Part shown: positions 5,155 through 53,725 of the stretch, in pieces
Numbering within the stretch: position 1 is the first letter of the stretch
Layout of the letters: each line of letters starts with the position of its first letter
Assembly (NCBI GenBank): GCA_963816675.1
Contig: CAWFLS010000017.1
Span: 5,831 to 69,830 of the forward strand
Direction of reading: 5' to 3'
Source of the DNA: an uncultured Chloroflexia bacterium
GTDB taxonomy: Bacteria > Chloroflexota > Limnocylindria > Limnocylindrales > CSP1-4
DNA length: 64,000 nt
The notes under the pieces: generated by a model
The model's input: only the letters and a program-made list of their open reading frames with translations
Database searches by the model: none
Told to the model about the DNA's origin: nothing
Program-made: the position numbers and the translations under genes

Positions 5155-6297
5155 ATGATCGCGGTCACCTTCGGACTCGCCCGCTATGGCTACGGCCTGC
5201 TGCTGCCGGACATGCGGGCCGAGATCCAGATGACCGCGAGCACGGCCGGTCTTGTCTCGTCCGCGGCCTACCTCTCCTACCTGGCAGCCAACATCGGCGT
5301 CGTCGCGGTGCTCACCCGGTGGGGTCCGCGGGTAGCAGTCGGAGGCGCCGCGCTACTCGCAGCAGTCGGGATGGGCGTCATCGCCGGCGCCCACTCGGTG
5401 ATGCTCCTGGCCATCGGCGTCGTCGTGGCCGGTGCTGCGGCGGGGATGTCGTTCCCGCCGTACGCCGACATCGTCGCCGGGCAGGTGCGGCCTGAGAAAC
5501 GGGACGCCGTGTGGGCGACAATCAGCTCCGGGACGGGCTGGGGTGTCGCCATCGCCGGTCCGATCGCGATCGTCGCCGGAGCGCAGTGGCGCGTGGCATG
5601 GGCGATCTTCGTGATGACTGCGGTGGTGGTCGGGACGCTGGCCGTGTTCCATGCCCCAGCCGCCGAAGACCGGCGCGCACGTCTGCCCCAGCTGAGCATC
5701 ACCTGGTTCTTCTGTCCGAAGTCCCGCCCGCTCCTGCTCTCCGCCGTACTCGTCGGCGCTGGAAGCTCAGTCTGGTGGGCGTTCAGCGTGGACGCGCTGC
5801 GTCAGGCCGGCATCGACCCGAGCGCTGCCCGGCTCACCTACGCAGCATGCGGTGCGGCGATGCTCCTGGCCTCGTTCAGTGGCCTGATGTTCGCGCGGTT
5901 CGGGCTTCGTCCCAGCTACCTGGTCTCGTGTGTCCTGCTTGCCGCGTCCCTTGCGGTCTTCGGACTGTCGACCGCACACCTGACCACCGCTCTGGCGGCG
6001 GCCATCGTGTTCGGGGCGGTCTACGCGTCCGTCATCGCGGTGCACGGTGTCTGGAGCTCGCGGGTCTTCGCGGACCACCCGTCCGCAGGTCTGGCCGCCG
6101 TGAACACCGCGCTGACGATCGGAACCCTCGTCGGACCCACGTTGGCCGGCGTCCTGATCCAGCAGGCCGACTTTCGCTTCGCCCTGATCACCGTCGCCGT
6201 GCTGACGCTGGTGGCCCTGCCGTTCAGCCCGCCGTCGGCCCGACGCAAGGCCGTCATCGATGCCCACCGGTGCACAGCCGCACCGGTGCGTGACTGA
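5155..6297 (+). CDS. MFS transporter
   Basis: ORF 5029..6297. ATG 5155 gives MIAVTFGLARYGYGLLLPDMRAEI.. followed by ~12 hydrophobic segments. The upstream part of the ORF overlaps the MarR stop and looks non-coding. Confidence 0.75.
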   Translation: MIAVTFGLARYGYGLLLPDMRAEIQMTASTAGLVSSAAYLSYLAANIGVVAVLTRWGPRVAVGGAALLAAVGMGVIAGAHSVMLLAIGVVVAGAAAGMSFPPYADIVAGQVRPEKRDAVWATISSGTGWGVAIAGPIAIVAGAQWRVAWAIFVMTAVVVGTLAVFHAPAAEDRRARLPQLSITWFFCPKSRPLLLSAVLVGAGSSVWWAFSVDALRQAGIDPSAARLTYAACGAAMLLASFSGLMFARFGLRPSYLVSCVLLAASLAVFGLSTAHLTTALAAAIVFGAVYASVIAVHGVWSSRVFADHPSAGLAAVNTALTIGTLVGPTLAGVLIQQADFRFALITVAVLTLVALPFSPPSARRKAVIDAHRCTAAPVRD

Positions 6298-44017: not shown

Positions 44018-45649
44018 TTGACTGCTCAGGGCAAGGAACGTCGGGCCATGATGCGCACCGCTCGCAATGCCATCCGCCGCGACCGGCGGAGCATGGCCGC
44101 GGTCGTGGGTCCACCCGTGACCGCGATACAGGAGATCGCGATCGGTGCCCTGATCGGTGCCGGCTCGATCGTCGCGAAGGCGGCTTTCAACGCGCTCCTC
44201 GGCGGCGAAACGGGGTTCATCATCCTGTTCGCCGGCGCACTGGTCGGCGCGTGGTTCGGCGGCCTGCGGGGCGGAGTGGCCGCGACCCTCACTGCGGCGG
44301 TCCTCAACGTCATGGTCTTCATCGCGCCCCGGTCCTTGCCGATGACCGGGCTCGACGCGGGCCGGACGGTCCTGTACGTGCTCGGCGGGCTGCTGGTGAC
44401 ATGGCTCATCCACACGCTGCGGACGTCAAGGGATCGACTCGCCGCGTCATTGGTCGATCTCGGGGCGATGGCGGCTGCGGTCGAACGTCGCGACGAACGT
44501 CTTGAGATGGTCCTCGCGTCCTCGGGCACCGGGTTCTGGGAGTGGGACGTACGAACTGGCGAGCTGACATGGTCGGAAACGATCTACCGCCAGCACGGCC
44601 TCGATCCGGAAGGCGAAGCACCGTCCTTCGAGCGATACATCGAGACCATCCATCCAGACGATCGTGAGCGGTTTCGCCGCACGATGGACGAGACGCTCGA
44701 ATCGCGCGACACGTTCAGCCTCGAGTTCCGGATCGTCTGGGCGGACGGTTCCGTCCGCTGGACCCACGGCGTCGGCCGCATCTTCCGAGATCCCGATGGA
44801 CGTCCGACGCGGCTGATCGGGACCGGCACCGACATCACCGAGCAGCACCGGCTCGAGGCCGACCGGGATCGGCTCCTTGCCGACGAACGGCGCGCGGGCG
44901 CCTTCCGCGAGGCATTCATCGACGTCATCTCGCACGAGCTGCGCACGCCCATCACCACCATCTTCGGGCTGACACGGATCCTCGCCCGACCGGGCCGCGT
45001 CGACGACGCAACCGAGCGCGCCGGGCTCATCGACGACATCGCGGTGGAATCCGAGCGTCTGTTCCGACTGGTCGAGGACCTCCTGGTTCTCACACGGGCC
45101 GAGCGTGGCCAGTTCGCCGTCGAGGCCGAACCACTCGAGCTCCGACGGCTCCTCGCCCGCGTGGTCGCTCGAGAGCAGGCGAGGCTGCCCGGTCTGATGA
45201 TCAGTACCGAGATCGCCCGCGACCTCCCGGTCGTCGCCGGCGAGCAGACGTACGTCGAGCAGATCGTCCGGAACATGCTCTCGAATGCTGCCAAGTACAC
45301 CCCGCCGGGTACCCAGGTCATCGTCCGCGCCGAGCAGAAGGACTCCGCTGTCGCCGTTCGTGTGCTCGATTCGGGCCCGGGCATCGACCCCGCGGCCGCC
45401 GAGCGCGCGTTCGAGCTGTTCTATCGAGACCCAGACAGGGCGCGCTCGGTCGCCGGCTCGGGCATCGGTCTCTTCGTCTGCGCCAGTCTCGTCGAAGCGA
45501 TGGGCGGCAGGATCTGGGCGCAGCCGCGGCCCGAGGGCGGTGCCGAGTTCGGCTTCACATTGCGGGTCCTCCCAGATGACGAATCGATGCTCGCGAGCCG
45601 GCCGCTCCGGTCCGCCGCCGGTGTGGCGTCGGGAGCTGACCCGGACTGA
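44018..45649 (+). CDS. sensor histidine kinase: DUF4118-like membrane domain + PAS + HisKA + HATPase
   Basis: Membrane part IAIGALIGAGSIVAKAAFN..FIILFAGALVGAWFGGLRGG... PAS part SGTGFWEWDVRTGELTWSETIYRQHG... H-box FIDVISHELRTPITTIFG. G-boxes LDSGPGI and GSGIGL. Intact. TTG 44018 or ATG 44048. Confidence 0.85.
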   Translation: MTAQGKERRAMMRTARNAIRRDRRSMAAVVGPPVTAIQEIAIGALIGAGSIVAKAAFNALLGGETGFIILFAGALVGAWFGGLRGGVAATLTAAVLNVMVFIAPRSLPMTGLDAGRTVLYVLGGLLVTWLIHTLRTSRDRLAASLVDLGAMAAAVERRDERLEMVLASSGTGFWEWDVRTGELTWSETIYRQHGLDPEGEAPSFERYIETIHPDDRERFRRTMDETLESRDTFSLEFRIVWADGSVRWTHGVGRIFRDPDGRPTRLIGTGTDITEQHRLEADRDRLLADERRAGAFREAFIDVISHELRTPITTIFGLTRILARPGRVDDATERAGLIDDIAVESERLFRLVEDLLVLTRAERGQFAVEAEPLELRRLLARVVAREQARLPGLMISTEIARDLPVVAGEQTYVEQIVRNMLSNAAKYTPPGTQVIVRAEQKDSAVAVRVLDSGPGIDPAAAERAFELFYRDPDRARSVAGSGIGLFVCASLVEAMGGRIWAQPRPEGGAEFGFTLRVLPDDESMLASRPLRSAAGVASGADPD

Positions 45650-45767: not shown

Positions 45768-46376
45768 GTGGCCGACGACGCGGTGATCCGGCTGCTGCAA
45801 TTCAGAGCGCTGGGCACAGCCTTCGACGAGGTTCTTCGCGATGATGTGATCCCGCGCCTCTGTGCTCGGCGGGGGATCGTCGATTGCGTCTGCGGTCGGC
45901 AGGGTCCGGAACAGGCCGGACCCCGGATCATCGCCTCCGTATGGCCGAGTGAAGCGACCATGCGAACGGCCTTGGCCGAAGACGCCGGAGACGAGCTCGG
46001 TCCCGAGGGTGAGGGGGAGACGGGTGACCACCTCGTCGAGGTCCTTCCGTTGCGGGTCGCCAAGCGCTTTGTCCTCGATGGTCCACCGCGCATCTTGCGG
46101 GTCCTTCGCGGGCATGTCCGCGTCGGCGAGATGGACCTCTACGAGCAGGACATGCGCGACGGGACGGACGTGGATGCCGCTGGACTCCACAGCCCATCCG
46201 TGGTCTACATGGCAGAGGTCGGACCCGAGGAGCTGGTCTCGATTTCCACCTGGCGGCGCTGGCAGGACATCGAATACGCGACCGGCGGAGACATCTTCCA
46301 GCCGCGGGCGACGCAACACCGGGACCGCCTCATCGACTGGGACGTTCGACACTTCGAGATCATCGGGAACGACTGA
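45768..46376 (+). CDS. hypothetical protein, two tandem ABM/Dabb-like half-domains
   Basis: 202 aa. Halves end ..PRIIASVWPSEATMRTAL and ..EELVSISTWRRWQDIEYA, each preceded by a beta-alpha-beta-like stretch. Similarity was judged by eye only. Confidence 0.5.
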   Translation: MADDAVIRLLQFRALGTAFDEVLRDDVIPRLCARRGIVDCVCGRQGPEQAGPRIIASVWPSEATMRTALAEDAGDELGPEGEGETGDHLVEVLPLRVAKRFVLDGPPRILRVLRGHVRVGEMDLYEQDMRDGTDVDAAGLHSPSVVYMAEVGPEELVSISTWRRWQDIEYATGGDIFQPRATQHRDRLIDWDVRHFEIIGND

Positions 46377-46579: not shown

Positions 46580-46970
46580 CCGCGTCTGGGGGTTTCTTGC
46601 GGGGCGGGCCGGTTGTCTCCGGAGTAGTTACCTTGTCCCCGACGTGGGCCGCGCGCGTGATGCTGTCCGCGTGGGATCGACCGGACGCGAGCCCGCCAGC
46701 TCGAAATCCGGGCATCGATGTGTCGGGGCTCGTGTCGCCACTGGGTCCGCGGGTCGAAGAGTGCATTCGTCGTTCGCGCGCGTCATCAGGGCCTTGGGGC
46801 GCTATGCCGATCCGGTGCGCTGTAATGGCGTTGCAACATGTATAAACGGACGGGGACCGTCGGTGGCACGGACGGGACGCCATGCTGGGTGCTCAACCAC
46901 CCACGAAGGATCGTCTGGTCGCGAACGCCATAAGACGCGTCGGGCCACGTCACCAACCCAGGAGGTGCCG

Positions 46971-47723
46971 GTGAGTACCCAACCGCTCGTGCTCGTCGCA
47001 GACGACGAACCTCGCATCACAAAGCTCGTCTCGATCGCCCTCGGAGAAGAGGGATTCCGAGTGGTCACGGCCAACAGCGGCGAGGAGGCGCTCCAGAAGG
47101 CGGAGGACGTTCGCCCGGACATCGTCCTCCTCGACATCGTGATGCCGGATCTCGACGGCATCGAGGTGATGCGCCAGCTCCGCGAGCGCCGCCCGGTCGC
47201 GGTGATCCTCCTGACAGCGAAGGGTTCGACCGCCGACAAGGCGAAAGGCCTCGACCTCGGCGCCGACGACTACATCGCCAAGCCGTTCCACCCCGACGAG
47301 CTGGCCGCCCGCGTCCGCGCCGTGCTGCGGCGATCATCGGGAGCCCAGCCGGGAGCCGGCATCCTCGCCTTCGACGATGTCGAGATCGACCTCGAACGGC
47401 GGATGGTGACGCGAAACGGCGAGCTAGTGCAGCTCTCCCGAACCGAATGGCTTCTCCTCCAGCATCTCGCCGCGAACGCCGGCAAGGTCGTCCTCCACAC
47501 CGAGCTCCTGACGAAGGTCTGGGGACCGGAATATCGCGACGACCTCCAGTACCTGCGGGTGTGGGTGTCCCGGGTCCGCCGCAAGCTCGGAGCCGAACCG
47601 GGCGAGCCCGGCCGGATCAAGACCTTCCAGGGCATCGGCTACCTGCTCGATGTCGAGCCGCCGTCGGCGGCACCGGTGGAACCGCAGATGGTCAAGGACG
47701 AGCGCTCTGCGCTGATCGGCTAG
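46971..47723 (+). CDS. OmpR-family response regulator, KdpE-like
   Basis: GGAGG precedes GTG 46971. Receiver domain VLVADDEPRITKLV..DIVLLDIVMPDLDG..LTAKG... The winged helix ..LSRTEWLLLQHLAANAGKVVLHTELLTKVWGPEYRDDLQYLRVWVSRVRRKL..GIGYLL is a KdpE-type pattern. Confidence 0.85.
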   Translation: MSTQPLVLVADDEPRITKLVSIALGEEGFRVVTANSGEEALQKAEDVRPDIVLLDIVMPDLDGIEVMRQLRERRPVAVILLTAKGSTADKAKGLDLGADDYIAKPFHPDELAARVRAVLRRSSGAQPGAGILAFDDVEIDLERRMVTRNGELVQLSRTEWLLLQHLAANAGKVVLHTELLTKVWGPEYRDDLQYLRVWVSRVRRKLGAEPGEPGRIKTFQGIGYLLDVEPPSAAPVEPQMVKDERSALIG

Positions 47724-47800: not shown

Positions 47801-48514
47801 CTACCCGATCGGTGTCCCGAGCAGCCGATCGAACTCGGCCTGGATCAGGCCGTAGCATTCGCAGGTCTCACGCTCGATGCCGGGCCGGTCGATGATGCAG
47901 ACAGAGCCCCGGTCGTTCTGGATGATCCGCTTTCGCGCGAGGGCCCCCAGCGCACCGGAAACCTTTGGTCGTGACGTGCCGAGCATCATCGCGAGGAAGT
48001 CGTGGGTGAGCGGCATGGCGTCGCTCCGGTAGCGGTCGTCCATCGTCAGCAGCCACCGCGCTGTGCGCTGCTGGAGGTCGTGGAGCCGGTTGCACGCCAC
48101 GCTCTGGCTGGTCTGGAACAGCAGCGCGGCGACGTATCGGTCGACCACCTGGTGGAACGATTCGCCGCGCTCGTGCTCAGCACGCATGACTTCGGCGGGG
48201 AGCGAAGCCGCCGTTCCCGGCAGCTGGACGATCGCCTGCAACGGCATCGTGATCGTCCCGAGGATGATGGGCAGTCCGAGCAGTCCCTCGTATCCGACCG
48301 ATCCCACTTCGACGCCGGAGCCCGACGCATCGAAGGCGATCAGGGACAGGGCGCCGTCGAGCGGGAAGTAGCCGCGGCTGAGCGGTGCGTCCGGATGCAT
48401 CAGGATCTGTCGGGCGTGGAGCGGCTTCACCTCGAACGCCGGCTCGAGCCGGTCGGACGTCTCCGAATCCAGGAGGGCGAGCAGCCGATTGGCGTGCAGC
48501 CCCGGGGATCCCAT
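47801..48514 (-). CDS. Crp/Fnr family transcriptional regulator
   Basis: cNMP-binding-like N-domain (..ARQILMHPDAPLSRGYFPLDGALSLIAF..) and C-terminal HTH (..THDFLAMMLGTSRPKVSGALGALARKRIIQNDRGSVCIID). Confidence 0.8.
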   Translation of the reverse strand: MGSPGLHANRLLALLDSETSDRLEPAFEVKPLHARQILMHPDAPLSRGYFPLDGALSLIAFDASGSGVEVGSVGYEGLLGLPIILGTITMPLQAIVQLPGTAASLPAEVMRAEHERGESFHQVVDRYVAALLFQTSQSVACNRLHDLQQRTARWLLTMDDRYRSDAMPLTHDFLAMMLGTSRPKVSGALGALARKRIIQNDRGSVCIIDRPGIERETCECYGLIQAEFDRLLGTPIG

Positions 48515-48635: not shown

Positions 48636-48998
48636 GTGTCGTCTAGCATCGCGACGCTCGATAACGCCACACAAGGACCTTGCCCTCGTCATGCTCCCGT
48701 GACCTGCGACGACCCCACCGACAAGCCGGGACCGAGTTCACTGCGCCTGATCTGCTATCCCCGCGAGGATACGGCCCTCGTGGATCGGGCCAGGACCATC
48801 GTTGAAGAATCGGGCAGGTTGGGCCGGGTGGTCGCCCCCCAGCAGGTCGCCGATCGTCTTCGGGCCTGGTATCCGCACATCTCCATCTCGGTCCGCGAGC
48901 CATTCGCCGACCTGTGGGGAAGCCAGGATCCGACCTGGTACGTCTATCGCGACGGCAGCATCCTGCCGGACCGGAGAGCCGACGCCACCTCGGTCTAG
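48636..48998 (+). CDS. hypothetical protein carrying one 'WYVYRDG' module
   Basis: ..VADRLRAWYPHISISVREPFADLWGSQDPTWYVYRDGSI.. parallels the N-terminus of the 49662 gene. Start is GTG 48636 or GTG 48699. Confidence 0.55.
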   Translation: MSSSIATLDNATQGPCPRHAPVTCDDPTDKPGPSSLRLICYPREDTALVDRARTIVEESGRLGRVVAPQQVADRLRAWYPHISISVREPFADLWGSQDPTWYVYRDGSILPDRRADATSV

Positions 48999-49222
48999 CC
49001 GGTCACACCCACCGGGTCGTGGCGCCGTGGCGTGAGGGCGCCCGGCGCCGACCCGGCGCGGTGACTTGCGCCGACCCCGGGCCCGAGATCCCGCCGTAAC
49101 GCCGTTGCAAGCCTTGCGCGCAGCGCTGCGACTGCCCGACACCAGCAGGCGACTGAATATCGGGACACCACCCACCGGATCCGTCCGACAGGGTCTCGGG
49201 GGCCGTTCGGCGCGAGGTCCTG

Positions 49223-49567
49223 ATGACGGAACAGGTCAGCGATCCCATCATCCATGTCCTTCGACCCGGCGAAGAGCTACGCGGGCGCGCGCCGCTGATC
49301 GATGCGACGGTCGCAGTCACCGACGATCGTCTGGTCGTCGCCCGCGGTCCGAAGATCGCCGTCGACATCCCGTGGGGCCGCCTCCGGCGCATCCAGCTCG
49401 ACATCGAACGGCAGCGCCCCGCGACGCTTGTAGTCGTCCCGGAGTGGCCGAGCGATCCCCCACAGGTGCTGTCGGTCCCTGCCGCTTCATACCGTTCGGT
49501 CACCGACGTCGTGGCCCACATCGCGGAGCGACTTGCGGGCGCCGACCCGAACGACGGGAGTTCCTGA
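49223..49567 (+). CDS. hypothetical protein (possibly bacterial PH-like)
   Basis: Intact 114 aa: MTEQVSDPIIHVLRPGEELRGRAPLIDATVAVTDDRLVVARGPKIAVDIPWGRLRRIQLDIE... The fold assignment is a guess. Confidence 0.5.
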   Translation: MTEQVSDPIIHVLRPGEELRGRAPLIDATVAVTDDRLVVARGPKIAVDIPWGRLRRIQLDIERQRPATLVVVPEWPSDPPQVLSVPAASYRSVTDVVAHIAERLAGADPNDGSS

Positions 49568-49661
49568 TCGGCGCGTAACTGAACTGGGAGACGGGGAGAC
49601 CAGACATAGAAGCCGCTCACCGGCCGGCCGGTCACCCGGCTTGAGCCCGCCTGTACCGATC

Positions 49662-50717
49662 GTGCAGACCATCCCCTCGGACGACGCAGGGTTCCGTGAG
49701 CATGTCCAGCGGCTGGTCCGCCGGCAGCACGTGACCCGGCCTGCCGTGCTCCAGTCGCAGCTCGTATCGATCTTTCCGAAGGTCGTCGTTCGCGAGCGCG
49801 ATCTGTCAGGCGAGAAACCCGTCTGGTATGTCTACCGTGATGGCCGCTGGACGCCGTCCGAGCGCGCGCGGTGGTGGGAGGCTCCGCGGCTTCCGATGAT
49901 CACCGTCCGGCGCGACGGAACCCTCTCGTCGGCGAACGCGGGGGCAGCCAGCCTGCTTGGGCTTTCGGACGTCACCAGCGACGATCGGTGGTTCTCGGAC
50001 CTCGTGGCGCCTGATGCGACGAGGGAAGCCATGGAGCTGCTTGGCGTCGTCCTTGATGGCCACGACCTCACAGCCACCGTGCTCGTCCGAGCAAGGGGTG
50101 CCGAGGCGATCGCGTGTGAGCTCCACGCGACCCGTCAGGGCGATGAGATGGTCGCCGTCCTCCGCCTGGCTGAGGAGCCAGGGGAGCCAGTGGGCCGGTC
50201 GAGATCCACGTCGCGACCTGCTCGTGTCGTCAGTCTGCCGGAGGCGGATGTCGGTTTCGCCGACTACGTCAAGCTCGTCTACGACGGCATGCGGGCACCG
50301 ACGCTCGATGGCCTCGCGCTCCGACTTCGCCGGCTCTATCCGCACGCGCGGGTCGAACGTGACGGCTCGGACTGGGTCGTGCACCGGGACGCGGACGGCG
50401 TCACGGGCCCACTCGAGGGCTGGTGGCTGGATGCGGGGCTGCCGACGGTGATGTACGACGACGACGCGCTGATCGTCGATGCCAACGAGGCTGCCAGGCG
50501 GCTTCTCGGCAGCCCGCTGATCGGCCATCACTGGCAGGAGTTCGTGACGCCCGGCGGGACCGGCCGGGTGGCCGAGTTCCTGCCGATCATCCGTCGCGCC
50601 GGAGTGGTGAACTCGAGGTTTCGGATGCCCCGCGAGGACGGCTCGCTGGTCGAATTCGACTCGCATACCGAGGTCCACGGCGACCGGTTCCGGACCGTCA
50701 TGCGACCCCGTGAGTGA
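49662..50717 (+). CDS. hypothetical protein: two tandem copies of ['WYVYRDG' module + PAS-like domain]
   Basis: Module 1: ..LQSQLVSIFPKVVVRERDLSGEKPVWYVYRDGRW..WW..LP, then PAS-like ITVRRDGTLSSANAGAASLLG... Module 2: ..LALRLRRLYPHARVERDGSDWVVHRDADG..GWW..LP, then PAS-like VMYDDDALIVDANEAARRLLG..FRMPREDGSLVEFDSHTE. GTG 49662 lies in track ORF 49533..50717. Confidence 0.6.
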   Translation: MQTIPSDDAGFREHVQRLVRRQHVTRPAVLQSQLVSIFPKVVVRERDLSGEKPVWYVYRDGRWTPSERARWWEAPRLPMITVRRDGTLSSANAGAASLLGLSDVTSDDRWFSDLVAPDATREAMELLGVVLDGHDLTATVLVRARGAEAIACELHATRQGDEMVAVLRLAEEPGEPVGRSRSTSRPARVVSLPEADVGFADYVKLVYDGMRAPTLDGLALRLRRLYPHARVERDGSDWVVHRDADGVTGPLEGWWLDAGLPTVMYDDDALIVDANEAARRLLGSPLIGHHWQEFVTPGGTGRVAEFLPIIRRAGVVNSRFRMPREDGSLVEFDSHTEVHGDRFRTVMRPRE

Positions 50718-50861: not shown

Positions 50862-51356
50862 ATGGCGCGATTCGAGGACACGATCGAAGTCGAGGTTCCG
50901 GTTCGTGTCGCGTACGACCAGTGGACCCAGTTCAGGGAATTCCCGAAGTTCATGGAGGGGGTCGAAAGCGTCGAATTGTCGGATTCGATGACGCTGCGAT
51001 GGGTCGTCACGAGCGGCGGCCGACAGCGCACTTGGAGGGCGAGGATCATCGAGCGGACACCAGATGTCCGGATCGCGTGGCAGAGCATCGATGGGGGAGC
51101 CAACGACGGGACCGTCCTGTTCCGTTCGCTCGGGCTCGACCGGAGCCTCGTGACGCTTCGGCTCGACGTACAGTCCGACGGTCCGATGGAAGCCGCCGGA
51201 ACGACTCCCGCCTCGATGGAACGCCAGGTCCGCGGCGACCTGCGCCGGTTCAAGGCCTTTGTCGAGGAGCAGCTGGTCCCGACAGGCGCCTGGTGGGTTC
51301 CTGGTCAGGCCGGCCGCGACGGTCCGCGGCGCTCAGACGCGAGGATGGGGCACTAA
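50862..51356 (+). CDS. SRPBCC (cyclase/dehydrase) family protein
   Basis: MARFEDTIEVEVPVRVAYDQWTQFREFPKFMEGVESVE.. is a typical family N-terminus. Confidence 0.75.
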   Translation: MARFEDTIEVEVPVRVAYDQWTQFREFPKFMEGVESVELSDSMTLRWVVTSGGRQRTWRARIIERTPDVRIAWQSIDGGANDGTVLFRSLGLDRSLVTLRLDVQSDGPMEAAGTTPASMERQVRGDLRRFKAFVEEQLVPTGAWWVPGQAGRDGPRRSDARMGH

Positions 51357-51499: not shown

Positions 51500-53725
51500 T
51501 TGGACCTGCTGACGCTGGTTATCCAGCTAGCGTTCTACGCCCTGTTCGCGGCGGCCCTCTGGCGATACGCGCGGAGGCGGACTGCCGCTTGATCTCGCGG
51601 TCGTCCTGGTCTTCGCCACGACGGCTGCCCTGTTCGCGATCTCCATCGCCAACCAGATCTTCGGGCCTGACGTCGCTGCCCTGCTTCGTCCCGTCACGCT
51701 TACGGTCCTGTTCGCACAGCCGTACCTGATCGTCCGCCTGATCCACGTCATCTCCCCTGTGCCCTCGGCGCTCGCGCGCTCGCGTTCGCGGGGTTCGTCG
51801 CGACGACCGCTGGCGTTCCTCGTGCTCGGGACCCGAAGCGTGCCGGCCATCCTCCTCCTCGTCCTGTATTTCGGGATCGGCGAGGCGGTCGCGGCATACC
51901 AGATCGTGCGCCTGGCGCGCCGGCGTCTGGGCCTGCCTCGGGTGCGTCTCCTCCTTGCCGCCGCGGGCACGGCGATGTTCGGCCTCACGATCGTCGTCGC
52001 GGGGGTCGGTGCGGCATCCGCCGGTGGCACGTCAAGCAGCGCAGTCACGCTGGTCAGTCGCGTGTTGGCGTTGCTGGCCGGCCTCAGCTATCTCGCCGCA
52101 TTCCTGACGCCCAGCTGGTTGACCGGTCTCGTGCACCGGGCCGTGGCATTCGATCTGACGCGGTCTGTGGTAACGGCCGGCACCGGGACGGAGCCGGCGG
52201 CGGTCCTGTGGAACAGGCTCGAGGTCGCGGCCCAGACGATCCTCGGCGCGCGGACGGTCGTCATCCGCGATCGCGACGGACGGCCGTCGTCGGGCGCCCG
52301 CGATGACGCCGGCCGGGAGCCCCGACGATGCCGCGGACATCGATGACGACGCCTGGTCAGCCGGAGGCCGGACGGTCGTCGCCCTCCCGCTCGAGGCCGA
52401 CGGCGAGTCGGTCGTTCTGCACGCGTATCTCGACGGTCGACCGCTGTTCGTGGAAGACGATGTAGCGGTCCTGACCCTGCTCGGCTCGCTGACGATCCGC
52501 TCCGTGGCTCACGAGGAGGCGATCCAGCGCCTGCGCGCCACGCTGATGGACCTCCAGCAGTCCGCCGCGGTGCGGGCGAGTGAGGCACGCTTCCGGGCGC
52601 TCCTCGAGGCTCATCCGTATGCAGTCCTCGCGACCGATGAGGACGGCAGGATCAGCTGGAGCACCGATTCCACCGCCCAGCTGTTCGGCCACGGCGAGAA
52701 TGACCTCGTCGGCCGCTTCCTGGGCGAGCTCGTCGAGCTCACCGGCGCCGCACCGCAAGGATCTCGCGCCGGAGGATGAAGCGGTGCGGCGGATCGAGAC
52801 GACAGCCCATCGAGCCGACGGGACGACGTTCCCGGCCGAAGTCGCGCTCAAGGACTTCGAGCTCGAGGGCCGACCAAGCCGCCTGGCGCTCATCTCGGAC
52901 ATCACCTGGCGCCACGAAGCGAACGAGATCCGCGACCGGTTCATCGGGATCCTGTCGCACGAGCTGCGGACCCCGATCACGTCGATCTACGGCGGCGCGC
53001 AGGTCCTGGCAAAGCGCGCGATGCAGCTCGACGACGAGACGCGCAGCGAGCTGCTGGCAGGGCTCGCGGGCGAATCAGAGCGGCTCCAGCGGATGATCGA
53101 GAACCTGCTCATCCTCGCTCGGGTCGAGCGAGGTGCCGATTTCTTCGGGCCCGGGCCGGTCCTCGTCGATCGCGTCCTGCGCGAGGTCATCACCCGGGAA
53201 CGAGGCCTGTGGCCGTCAGCGACGATCGACCTCCGGATCAGCGGACCGATCCCGGTGGTCTCCGGCGACGAGGACCATCTCGCCCAGATCATGCGCAACC
53301 TGCTTGCCAATGCGGTCAAGTACGCCGGCGACGACGCCCACGTGCTCGTCAACGTCAGCTATGAAGCGCCATGGGTCAGCGTCGCCGTACGCGACGACGG
53401 CCCCGGATTCCCGCCCGAGGAGGCCGAGCAGCTGTTCGGGCTCTACTTCCGGTCGGCACAGAGCACCACGGCGCCCGGCGCAGGTATCGGCCTGTTCGTG
53501 TGCCGCCAGCTCGTGTCGGCGATGGGCGGCACGATCTGGTGCCGAACGCTACCGGAGGGCGGCGCCGAGTTTGGCTTCACGTTGGCGGCCTACGACGAGG
53601 AGGAGATGCCGGTGCCCCGGCCGCGTCCGGTGGAGGAGCCCGTCGCGACCGCGGAAGCGGCTCGGCGTGACGGTGCGGCGGCCATGGTCGAGGCGGTCCA
53701 TCCCGGGACCGTCACTGCCGCCTGA
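51500..53725 (+). CDS. sensor histidine kinase paralogue (multi-TM N-domain + PAS + HisKA + HATPase); >=3 frame breaks
   Basis: TTG 51500 begins DLLTLVIQLAFYALFAAALW | PLDLAVVLVFATTAALFAISIAN..(to 52346) | ..FRALLEAHPYAVLATDEDGRISWSTDSTAQLFG..(52303..52779) | ..H-box FIGILSHELRTPITSIYG, ..DDGPGF, GAGIGL (52580..53725). Confidence 0.75.

What the first reader, a model, noticed from the sequence alone, without database searches (positions are those of the whole stretch)
48636..50717. Uncharacterised repeated module ('..L..YP...V.ER....P.WYVYRDG..WW..LP') present three times, twice fused to PAS-like domains
The 120-aa ORF (48636) ends with ..RLRAWYPHISISVREPFADLWGSQDPTWYVYRDGSI. The 351-aa ORF (49662) starts with ..LVSIFPKVVVRERDLSGEKPVWYVYRDGRW..WWEAPRLP followed by a PAS-like domain. 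It then repeats the pattern (..LRLRRLYPHARVERDGSDWVVHRDADG..GWWLDAGLP) followed by a second PAS-like domain.

The identical heptapeptide WYVYRDG is encoded by different codons in the two genes (tgg tac gtc tat cgc gac ggc at 48936-48956 versus tgg tat gtc tac cgt gat ggc at 49824-49844). Conservation is therefore at the protein level. I cannot match the module to a named domain. Its position next to a Crp/Fnr regulator, a PH-like small protein and two kinases suggests a new sensory or adaptor module.
Basis: seen in the sequence. Interest (0 to 1): 0.7.

Follow-up and report, generated by a model that had tools for sequence, protein, structure and literature searches.

The report
Undescribed small domain partnering PAS sensors
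The repeated "WYVYRDG" module is real: it is an undescribed protein domain of about 65 residues, confined to one uncultured soil lineage of Chloroflexota, found in front of PAS sensor domains or as a tiny stand-alone protein, and it most likely works as a protein-binding adaptor, though its function is inferred rather than shown.

Summary
The window holds exactly three copies of one module: one in a small ORF (48699-48998) and two in a 351-aa protein (49662-50717). That protein is an internal duplication of a [module-PAS] unit. The copies are alike only at the protein level.

The module matches no Pfam or NCBIfam family. It has no significant match in PDB sequences, PDB structures or predicted viral structures. 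AlphaFold2 predicts a compact β-α-α-β-β domain (pLDDT 82).

A profile search of 1.84 billion proteins finds 1,246 clusters. Genome scans place nearly all hits in Limnocylindria (Chloroflexota). The architectures seen are module alone, module-module, module-PAS, (module-PAS)x2, and fusions to an ABM-like domain, HTH_17 and a domain like the neighbouring 114-aa protein.

Stand-alone modules are followed by a small acidic helical-hairpin gene in 43 of 67 cases. PAS-linked modules never are (0 of 141).

Best reading: a lineage-specific protein-protein interaction (adaptor or transmitter) domain of output-less PAS sensors. The function is inferred, not shown. Interest is moderate.

The parts
48699..48998 (+). 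ORF1, a 99-aa stand-alone module protein. The mechanical ORF starts at GTG 48636 (120 aa). Homologues and the GC3 profile favour GTG 48699.
   Evidence: P0121 is 98% identical and starts at VTCDD. There are nine homologues of about 99 aa. dN/dS is 0.35-0.49.
48747..48992 (+). Module copy 1, of the 'DP[FL]A' hairpin subtype (LRLICYP.ED ... WYPHISISVREPFADLWGSQDPTWYVYRDGS). It has no WW..LP tail.
   Evidence: HMM hit. The leave-class-out profile gives 40 bits. Subtype alignment is A6.
49223..49567 (+). The 114-aa protein ('p114'), with no family match. It is conserved between ORF1 and ORF2 in close relatives. A related domain is fused to a module-PAS-HTH_17 protein elsewhere.
   Evidence: hhalign probability 83%, E 9e-6; dN/dS 0.14-0.30.
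49662..50717 (+). ORF2, 351 aa, with the architecture module-PAS-module-PAS and no output domain. It is an internal duplication of a module-PAS unit.
   Evidence: 420 homologues; AF2 pLDDT 81.5.
49662..49850 (+). Module copy 2, the N-module core (residues 1-63). Predicted elements: β1 2-4, α1 9-22, α2 27-35, β2 42-46, β3 54-58 (WYVYR).
49872..49895 (+). The 'WWEAPRLP' segment (residues 71-78). This is the linker and N-terminal cap of PAS1, not part of the autonomous module.
   Evidence: It is absent from all stand-alone forms. Residues 61-70 have low pLDDT and a short helix sits at 71-73.
49896..50168 (+). PAS domain 1 (ORF2 residues about 79-169).
   Evidence: Pfam PAS_4, E 6e-8. AF2 strands and helices. 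Foldseek matches to multi-PAS proteins, E 1e-9.
50226..50450 (+). Module copy 3, the C-module (residues 189-263). It is the most divergent copy, with a short hairpin and the invariant RLRRLYPHA motif. The span includes GWWLDAGLP.
   Evidence: (same β-α-α-β-β).
50445..50708 (+). PAS domain 2 (residues about 262-349), the best-conserved part of the family (GHHWQEFVTPG, SRFRMP, EFDS).
   Evidence: Pfam PAS_9/PAS_8, TIGR00229 and alignment A1.
47801..48514 (-). Crp/Fnr-family regulator, divergent from ORF1. Adjacent in L001, L077 and L078, and also next to the ORF2 homologue in L017.
45768..46376 (+). The 202-aa tandem ABM-like protein. It is homologous to the N-terminal region of the roughly 720-aa ABM-like-PAS-module-PAS-module-PAS proteins.
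   Evidence: (hhalign probability 85%, E 5.7e-6).
50862..51356 (+). SRPBCC (Polyketide_cyc) protein downstream of ORF2. It holds the same position in L078.

Best explanation
The three copies are instances of an undescribed, autonomously folding domain of about 65 residues. Its predicted topology is β-α-α-β-β, and its hallmark is the β3 strand W-Y-V-Y-R-D-G. The domain is essentially confined to Limnocylindria (Chloroflexota).

ORF2 is a cytoplasmic sensor without an output domain, built from two [module-PAS] units. ORF1 is a single-domain paralogue of a different subtype.

The most likely mechanism (inferred) is protein-protein interaction. The module would act as an adaptor or transmitter domain that presents a conserved aromatic and charged β-sheet or hairpin surface to a partner. 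In module-PAS proteins the adjoining PAS domain would gate that surface in response to its ligand. Stand-alone modules would bind partners constitutively or compete for them. In many genomes that partner would be the small acidic helical-hairpin protein encoded immediately downstream.

Shown:
- The domain is real and conserved, and has no match in the family, sequence and structure libraries searched.
- Its predicted fold and its range of architectures.
- Its phyletic restriction.
- The gene pairing with the helical-hairpin protein.

Inferred:
- Binding function.
- PAS gating.
- Identity of the partners in this window, which lacks the helical-hairpin gene.
For: Real and conserved:
- ORF2 has 420 homologues, with full-length orthologues at 45-76% identity. 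dN/dS is below 0.5.
- The module profile finds 1,246 clusters at 50% identity (511 at E≤1e-10) among 1.84 billion proteins.

No match to anything described:
- No Pfam hit for the window proteins at E≤1 or for 43 family members at E≤10.
- No NCBIfam hit.
- Best PDB sequence hit has E 0.3.
- Foldseek against PDB and BFVD gives nothing below E 0.28.
- No plasmid or phage match and no literature hit.

Autonomous domain:
- AF2 gives the same β-α-α-β-β elements in the full-length protein and in isolation (pLDDT 81.5 and 82.4).
- Among 144 representatives, 57 are module alone, 47 module-PAS, about 22 module-PAS-module(-PAS) and 2 module-module (sequences).

Interaction role:
- Columns invariant across all classes are P5, D8, W55 and R59, with L34, P39 and D60 nearly so. 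This looks like a structural set rather than a catalytic one.
- 43 of 67 ORF-terminal modules are followed on the same strand by the acidic helix-loop-helix gene 'c2' (median pI 4.4). None of 141 PAS-linked modules is.
- In eight loci the ORF2 homologue, an MBL-fold gene and a stand-alone module lie in one same-strand cluster. c2 follows in six of these (c2 calls).
- N-modules are basic (median pI 10.5) and C-modules acidic (5.2).
- Fusions to HTH_17 plus a p114-like domain, and to an ABM-like domain, tie the module-PAS unit to two separate genes of this window.

Lineage:
- Of 115 hits confirmed, all 76 loci kept are Limnocylindria or Chloroflexota MAGs except three contigs from other bins.
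- 79 of 117 new pattern-scan loci carry the module. These are also Limnocylindria or Chloroflexota except four contigs from other bins.
Against: - No binding or expression data exist.
- The window itself has no c2 gene, and ORF1-type modules lack c2 in L001, L077 and L078. The proposed partner therefore cannot be the one used here.
- Gene neighbourhoods of ORF2 orthologues are not conserved beyond close relatives.
- No model of a complex could be computed.
- The tools gave no coordinates or PAE, so the exposed-surface argument rests on strand periodicity only.
- The weak structural neighbours include winged-helix DNA binders.
- AlphaFold DB and HHpred were not available, so a remote relationship to a known fold family is not excluded.
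Confidence: 0.5

Rival explanations
1. The module is only a lineage-specific N-terminal extension or cap of a specialised PAS subfamily. It would stabilise or dimerise the PAS domain and have no partner-binding role of its own. Stand-alone copies would be evolutionary leftovers.
For: 141 of 215 distinct module hits are followed by a PAS domain. The conserved WW..LP segment links the module tightly to the PAS domain. The [module-PAS] unit duplicated as a whole.
Against: 57 of 144 representative clusters are module-only proteins with intact conserved motifs. Module-module tandems without PAS exist (P0190, P0248). Stand-alone genes are specifically paired with c2 (43 of 67). ORF1 is under purifying selection. 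The residues between module and WW have low pLDDT, which suggests a flexible tether.
Confidence: 0.2
2. The module is a compact winged-helix-like nucleic-acid-binding domain. ORF2 would then be a one-component regulator with two DNA/RNA-binding-PAS units.
For: The element order β-α-α-β-β equals a winged helix lacking its first helix. The weak Foldseek neighbours include Zα, PadR, Pex and RQC (E 0.65-2). N-modules are basic (median pI 10.5). α2 and β2 are Arg-rich in most N- and C-modules (RLRRLFPRVVVRER). A two-helix-plus-hairpin surface with exposed Tyr and Arg would suit nucleic acids.
Against: No structural match is significant (best E 0.65, TM 0.27-0.38). Stand-alone modules and C-modules are acidic to neutral (median pI 5.6 and 5.2). 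The Arg residues of α2 are absent from the window's own N-module and its closest orthologues (LQSQLVSIFP). One family member carries a separate HTH_17 DNA-binding domain. No Pfam HTH model hits any of 43 members.
Confidence: 0.12
3. Stand-alone module plus c2 is a toxin-antitoxin-like or other selfish two-gene cassette. The PAS-fused copies would be domesticated derivatives, and ORF1 a solitary remnant.
For: The pairs are small adjacent genes on one strand, one of them strongly acidic, with several pairs per genome. One MAG has three (L116, L135, L188).
Against: There is no match to PADLOC or to Pfam toxin or antitoxin families. Nothing is found on plasmids or phages. The family is strictly confined to one lineage rather than horizontally scattered. 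Most copies are fused to PAS sensors.
Confidence: 0.06
4. The module is itself a small-molecule sensory domain. This is the 'sensory' alternative in the first reader's phrase 'sensory or adaptor module'.
For: It always accompanies sensor (PAS) domains, and its aromatic residues are highly conserved.
Against: It has about 60 residues, two helices and three strands, leaving little room for a pocket. The invariant residues are typical of fold determinants. The adjoining PAS domains already provide ligand-binding capacity.
Confidence: 0.07

Closest known systems
PAS-domain flanking elements (N-terminal caps, A'α helices) of cytoplasmic PAS sensors
   Same: It lies immediately N-terminal to PAS domains. 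The conserved WW..LP segment probably packs on the PAS core. The unit was duplicated together with its PAS domain.
   Different: The module is a separate α/β domain of about 65 residues on a low-confidence tether. It also exists alone and in tandem without any PAS domain. PAS Pfam models do not cover it.
STAS domains in partner-switching systems and in LOV/PAS-STAS proteins such as YtvA and RsbR (comparison from general knowledge, not tested here)
   Same: A small α/β domain that occurs both as a single-domain protein and fused to a PAS-type sensor lacking an enzymatic output. It is thought to signal by protein-protein binding.
   Different: There is no sequence or structural similarity: no STAS hit in Pfam and none among the top 50 Foldseek matches. 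The module is shorter, has a different topology and has no conserved phosphorylatable Ser. No SpoIIAB/RsbW-type kinase turned up among the recurrent neighbour gene clusters, though most neighbours were not scanned against Pfam.
POTRA domain (FtsQ, BamA)
   Same: It has the same order of secondary-structure elements (β-α-α-β-β) and a similar size. The FtsQ POTRA domain is the top Foldseek PDB match (6h9o_C, 2vh1_B, 2vh2_A). POTRA domains bind partner proteins (general knowledge).
   Different: The match is not significant (E 0.65-1.3, TM 0.35-0.37 over about 50 columns). No Pfam POTRA hit appears at E≤10. POTRA domains are extracytoplasmic. These proteins show no obvious hydrophobic N-terminal or membrane-spanning stretch by eye, but no predictor was run.
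Winged-helix DNA-binding domains (Zα, PadR, Pex)
   Same: Two helices followed by a β-hairpin. They appear among the weak Foldseek matches.
   Different: E is 0.65 or higher and TM 0.24-0.28. The charge pattern and the variable α2 argue against a conserved recognition helix. No Pfam HTH match.

Membership tests
PAS domain (Pfam clan PAS_Fold), for the two domains that follow the modules | Significant match to PAS profile HMMs above the gathering score | tested here: met
   PAS_4 scores 33.3 bits (cut-off 23.1) at residues 79-161. PAS_9 scores 28.4 (cut-off 27) and PAS_8 27.4 (cut-off 21.8) at residues 263-331. TIGR00229 scores 28.7 (cut-off 22.9).
PAS domain (Pfam clan PAS_Fold), for the two domains that follow the modules | PAS fold: five-stranded antiparallel sheet with flanking helices | tested here: met
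   The AF2 secondary-structure pattern fits. Foldseek matches multi-PAS structures (PpsR, HIF-2α:ARNT, FixL) at E 1e-9 to 1e-7.
Any Pfam-A or NCBIfam family, for the module itself | Profile-HMM match to the module region | tested here: not met
   No family at E≤1 for ORF1 or for ORF2 residues 1-78 and 185-262. Among 43 family members scanned at E≤10, there are only scattered single hits, the best being E 0.008. NCBIfam gives none.
POTRA domain | Significant structural superposition on a solved POTRA domain, or a POTRA profile match | tested here: not met
   Foldseek gives E 0.65, probability 0.30 and TMq 0.36 for the FtsQ POTRA domain. No Pfam POTRA hit. Only the order of elements agrees.
Winged helix-turn-helix DNA-binding domains | Significant structural or profile match, and a conserved basic recognition helix | tested here: not met
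   Foldseek E is 0.65 or higher and TM 0.24-0.28. No HTH Pfam hit. The α2 Arg residues are not conserved in the window protein. Stand-alone and C-modules are acidic.
STAS / anti-sigma-antagonist partner-switching domains | STAS profile match, and a neighbouring SpoIIAB/RsbW-type kinase or PP2C phosphatase | tested here: not met
   No STAS hit. No such kinase or phosphatase appears among the recurrent neighbour clusters, though those clusters were inspected by sequence and not all were scanned against Pfam. The functional analogy itself could not be tested with these tools.
Known toxin-antitoxin or defence systems, for the module + c2 pair | Match to PADLOC or Pfam toxin/antitoxin models | tested here: not met
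   PADLOC gives no hit for ORF1, a stand-alone module or c2. Pfam gives none for c2.
Proposed new family ('WYVYRDG module') | A core of about 60-65 residues with [hydrophobic strand]-P-x-x-D-x-x-F ... L-x-x-x-L-R-x-x-[YF]-P ... W-[YVIL]-V-[YH]-R-D, and a β-α-α-β-β prediction | tested here: met
   All three window copies match. HMM scores are 69-99 bits (the window sequences were in that model). Leave-class-out profiles give 73, 40 and 16 bits. AF2 predicts the same elements for the N- and C-modules. ORF1 itself was not modelled.

The most novel reading that the evidence does not exclude
The module and the small acidic helical-hairpin protein (c2) would form a signalling pair peculiar to Limnocylindria. 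PAS-gated modules in proteins like ORF2 would capture or release hairpin-type partners or other modules. Stand-alone modules like ORF1 would act as competitors. Together this would be a partner-switching-like network built from a new fold, working without phosphorylation and linking redox or ligand sensing (PAS, ABM-like, SRPBCC, Crp) to downstream regulators.
Probability: 0.15. Interest if true: 0.65.

Novelty: new variant of a known kind. Interest (0 to 1): 0.4.

Why it matters
Limnocylindria (formerly Ellin6529) is, from general knowledge, a widespread and uncultured soil class, and its biology is known only from MAGs. An undescribed domain with more than 1,200 sequence clusters sits in front of PAS sensors in these genomes. 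It points to a lineage-specific way of passing on PAS signals in proteins that have no recognisable output domain.

Defining the family would:
- give a name and boundaries to several hundred 'hypothetical' or merely 'PAS domain-containing' proteins;
- separate the true domain from the PAS linker;
- offer concrete partners to test (c2, the 114-aa protein, the ABM-like protein).

It does not by itself answer a long-standing question, and lineage-restricted domains of unknown function are common. The value is moderate.

Tried and rejected
- **DNA-level repeat or recent duplication.** Rejected. blastn and the repeat finder show no nucleotide similarity between the copies.
- **Spurious high-GC ORFs.** Rejected. 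The GC3 frame signal, the homologues and dN/dS all support coding.
- **Match to a known family.** Pfam, NCBIfam and PADLOC found nothing for the module. Neither did PDB sequence profiles, Foldseek against PDB and BFVD, or tblastn against plasmids and phages.
- **APH(2'')-Id kinase similarity.** The best PDB sequence hit is the N-terminus of this kinase (E 0.3, 36 residues, 'YPdftintieisGeG'). It is judged a chance local resemblance, because the module has no kinase lobes.
- **Regulatory RNA or promoter/terminator features around the genes.** Rfam gave only a sub-threshold snoRNA hit, and there were no consensus promoters or terminators.
- **Conserved operon with the kinases or regulator.** This holds only in the closest clade.
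- **c2 partner gene in the window.** None found by tblastn or HMM.
Apparent ORFs with 472-930 residues following a module were artefacts of masking stop codons. One search shows an in-frame stop directly after the module in each.
- **Literature searches.** No papers were found.
Full report
**Setting**

The window is high-GC DNA (66-71%). The closest public relatives of the genes studied are MAGs labelled Limnocylindria, Limnocylindrales, Chloroflexota or 'uncultured Chloroflexia'.

Gene order around the finding:

| Position | Strand | Product |
|---|---|---|
| 44018-45649 | + | PAS histidine kinase |
| 45768-46376 | + | 202-aa protein with no family match |
| 46644-47723 | + | OmpR-type response regulator |
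| 47801-48514 | - | Crp/Fnr-family regulator |
| 48636/48699-48998 | + | ORF1 |
| 49223-49567 | + | 114-aa protein ('p114') |
| 49662-50717 | + | ORF2 |
| 50862-51356 | + | SRPBCC protein |
| 51759-53725 | + | second histidine kinase |

**Check of the observation**

- The two WYVYRDG heptapeptides lie at 48936-48956 and 49824-49844 and use different codons at four positions.
- blastn and a repeat search find no nucleotide similarity between the genes.
- Local alignment scores of the three copies exceed shuffled controls. They are 81 vs 27±5 and 67 vs 24±4 for the two strong pairs. The most distant pair scores 41 vs 26±4.
- The two halves of ORF2 align end to end (E 3e-9). ORF2 is therefore a duplicated [module-PAS] unit.
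- Pfam and NCBIfam confirm two PAS domains and nothing else.
- A six-frame HMM scan finds exactly three module copies in the 64 kb.
- Profiles that exclude the window sequences and the class under test still recover the ORF2 N-module (73 bits) and ORF1 (40 bits). The C-module is recovered only weakly (16 bits), so it is the most diverged copy.

Two corrections follow.
- ORF1 is probably 99 aa, starting at GTG 48699 like its homologues.

**The genes are real**

ORF2 has 420 homologues at E≤1e-3. The top hits are full-length proteins of about 350-370 aa at 45-76% identity, named at most 'PAS domain-containing protein'. ORF1 has only nine close homologues.

Against orthologous DNA, dN/dS is 0.35-0.49 for ORF1, 0.16-0.25 for ORF2 against its three closest orthologues (0.37 against the 48%-identical L017), and 0.14-0.30 for p114.

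**What the module is**

Alignments of N-modules, C-modules, ORF1-type and stand-alone sequences (A2 and A3) share four invariant columns: P5, D8, W55 and R59. L34, P39 and D60 are nearly invariant.

Class consensus sequences:
- Stand-alone: `L..NP..D..F...V...P..L...LR..YP..VVR.R.LSGE...WYVYRDG.W`
- N-module: `TIPS.D.AFR.HV.R...P..LE.RLRRLFPRVVVRER.LSGE.P.WYVYRDG.W....WW...GLPRV`
- C-module: `P..D.AFRGYV.LAL.RMPEPTPDGLALRLRRLYPHARV...G..W.A.RD......WW.DP.LPRV`

AlphaFold2 predicts the same compact β1-α1-α2-β2-β3 unit in two settings. One is full-length ORF2 (pLDDT 81.5; both modules). The other is the module alone (pLDDT 82.4). A low-confidence stretch separates β3 from a short helix at 'WW' that leads into the first PAS strand. 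Stand-alone proteins end a few residues after YRDG.W. I therefore assign WW..LP to the PAS linker or cap.

**No known relative was found**

- Pfam: nothing for the window proteins at E≤1. For 43 members at E≤10 there are only scattered single hits.
- NCBIfam and PADLOC: nothing.
- PDB sequence profile: best hit E 0.3, a 36-residue stretch at the N-terminus of APH(2'')-Id, judged chance.
- Foldseek of the module model: no match with E≤0.001 in PDB or BFVD. The best are the FtsQ POTRA domain (E 0.65, TM 0.36) and winged-helix proteins.
- No plasmid or phage match and no paper.

POTRA shares the β-α-α-β-β order. That is a resemblance of topology only. AlphaFold DB and HHpred were not available.

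**Distribution and architectures**

A profile search of 1.84 billion representative proteins gives 1,246 clusters at E≤1e-3 and 511 at E≤1e-10.

The 144 newly listed representatives (the top 150 minus six already retrieved) break down as follows:

| Architecture | Count |
|---|---|
| Module alone (about 70-110 aa) | 57 |
| Module-PAS (about 180-200 aa, complete proteins) | 47 |
| Module-PAS-module(-PAS) | about 22 |
| About 700-740-aa proteins with an extra N-terminal region and PAS | 9 |
| Module-module | 2 |
| Module-PAS-HTH_17 with a further C-terminal domain | 1 |

Two scans of one genome per species bear on the lineage.
- The alignment-seeded scan confirmed 115 relatives.
Of 117 new loci, 79 carried a true module.

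Apart from seven contigs, the positive loci come from Limnocylindria or Chloroflexota MAGs (two carry Anaerolineaceae and Thermomicrobiales labels). The seven, of 2.5-31 kb, sit in soil MAGs labelled as other phyla (L008, L032, L055, L103, L159, L176, L192). I take these as probable binning errors. The 38 pattern matches without a module are scattered over unrelated taxa, as expected by chance.

**Context**

The window's gene order recurs only in the closest clade. That order is response regulator, Crp(-), ORF1, p114, ORF2, then SRPBCC or kinase. It is seen in L001, L077 and L078. Crp is also adjacent in L017, and p114 lies upstream of the ORF2 homologue in L029.

Other ORF2 orthologues have different neighbours, often but not always two-component genes.

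Two links come from domain fusion instead.
- The p114 profile aligns to the C-terminal domain of the module-PAS-HTH_17 protein P0193 (hhalign probability 83%, E 9e-6).
- The second half of the 202-aa neighbour aligns to the N-terminal, weakly ABM-like region of the roughly 720-aa module-PAS proteins (probability 85%, E 5.7e-6).

Both are single-comparison statistics and moderate in strength.

**A partner gene for stand-alone modules**

Clustering of neighbours revealed a small acidic helix-loop(DPxDP)-helix protein, here called c2 (about 70-95 aa, median pI 4.4, longer paralogues about 140 aa). It has no Pfam match and resembles only designed coiled coils in the PDB.
- It lies directly downstream, on the same strand, of 43 of 67 distinct ORF-terminal modules.
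- It lies downstream of none of 141 modules that continue into a PAS domain.
- In eight loci the order is ORF2 homologue, MBL-fold gene, stand-alone module, then a divergent permease gene. c2 follows the module in six of them (L025, L033, L036, L037, L050, L055) and was not detected in L029 or L031.
- Several genomes carry more than one pair.
- The window has no c2, and ORF1-type modules lack it in the three relatives examined.

**Interpretation**

Shown:
- The domain family is real and has no match in the family, sequence and structure libraries searched.
- Its predicted fold, its architectures and its lineage restriction.
- The specific pairing of stand-alone copies with c2.

Inferred: the module is a protein-protein interaction (adaptor or transmitter) domain. 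Five observations support this.
- The residues conserved across all classes look like fold determinants rather than a catalytic set.
- The domain is too small for an obvious ligand pocket.
- It occurs alone, in tandem and fused to sensors that lack outputs.
- Stand-alone copies are operonically coupled to a helical partner.
- N- and C-modules of one protein carry opposite net charge (median pI 10.5 vs 5.2), which is compatible with module-module or module-partner contacts.

In ORF2 the PAS domains would sense and the modules would transmit. The second PAS domain is the most conserved part (GHHWQEFVTPG, SRFRMP, EFDS). ORF1 could be a free competitor or partner.

Four rivals were weighed.
- A mere PAS cap or dimerisation element. 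The stand-alone and tandem forms and the c2 pairing argue against it.
- A winged-helix-like nucleic-acid binder. Basic N-modules and weak Foldseek neighbours favour it. Acidic stand-alone and C-modules, a non-conserved α2 and a separate HTH in one member argue against it.
- A toxin-antitoxin-like cassette. There are no family matches, no mobile-element signal and strict lineage confinement.
- A small-molecule sensor. Nothing supports it.

**Verdict**

This is a lineage-specific accessory domain of PAS signalling proteins with no match in the libraries searched, and its function is unknown. I rate it a new variant of a known kind (modular cytoplasmic sensor proteins) rather than a categorically new system, with moderate interest (0.4). 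The most novel reading not excluded is a module/hairpin partner-switching-like network (probability about 0.15).

Noticed in passing
window 51759-53725 (+): The second histidine kinase is split over three reading frames (51759-52346, 52303-52779, 52580-53725). Its orthologue in L001 is a single 625-aa ORF in one frame. This implies two frameshifts, from either assembly indels or a pseudogene. Several related contigs (L046, L047, L049, L052, L054, L057) show similar split hits in ORF2 orthologues.
   Followed up: partly
window 45768-46376 (+): The 202-aa protein between the kinase and the response regulator looks like a tandem ABM/Dabb-like protein. Its second half aligns to the N-terminal region of the roughly 720-aa ABM-like-PAS-module-PAS-module-PAS proteins (hhalign probability 85%, E 5.7e-6). 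The Pfam ABM hits are weak (E 0.005 in 3 of 7).
   Followed up: partly
window 49223-49567 (+); L077 6498-6815; L078 5601-5918; L029 4877-5173: The 114-aa protein has no Pfam, NCBIfam or PDB-sequence match but is conserved (49-78% identity, dN/dS 0.14-0.30). It resembles the C-terminal domain of a module-PAS-HTH_17 protein (P0193).
   Followed up: partly
e.g. L062 6173-6445, L025 8129-8515, L033 8092-8397, L067 6176-6451 (alignment A4): A family of small acidic helix-loop(DPxDP)-helix proteins with no family match ('c2') is encoded directly downstream of stand-alone modules (43 of 67). In L062, L067, L068, L071 and L073 a longer paralogue of about 140 aa also lies just upstream. None is present in the window.
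   Followed up: yes
L025, L029, L031, L033, L036, L037, L050, L055: A conserved same-strand cluster: ORF2 homologue, a 254-aa MBL-fold hydrolase-like gene and a stand-alone module, followed by a divergent large membrane permease-like gene. c2 follows the module in six of the eight loci. It was not detected in L029 or L031.
   Followed up: partly
L061, L063, L075, L076 (about 5990-6200 and flanks); L107: Some stand-alone modules sit between an Ogt/MGMT-like gene and a heavy-metal P-type ATPase gene. c2 was not detected in L061, L063 or L076 but is present in L075. In L107 a stand-alone module is followed directly by an OmpR-type response regulator.
   Followed up: no
L008, L032, L055, L103, L159, L176, L192: Module-bearing contigs of 2.5-31 kb are assigned to MAGs labelled Methylomirabilota, Dormiibacterota, Patescibacteria, Solirubrobacteraceae, Eisenbacteria, Gemmatimonadales and Verrucomicrobiia. 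These are probably mis-binned Limnocylindria contigs rather than real occurrences in other phyla.
   Followed up: no
window 46644-47723 (+): The mechanical ORF of the OmpR-type response regulator carries an N-terminal extension of about 100 aa before the receiver domain (VSTQPLVLVADDEP...). The true start is probably near 46960.
   Followed up: no
P0152; L149 (minus strand): A subtype related to ORF1 ('DPFGGYPDDP..VWYVYRDGRIR') carries a C-terminal helical extension of about 50 residues instead of a PAS domain. Whether this tail mimics the c2 hairpin was not examined.
   Followed up: no
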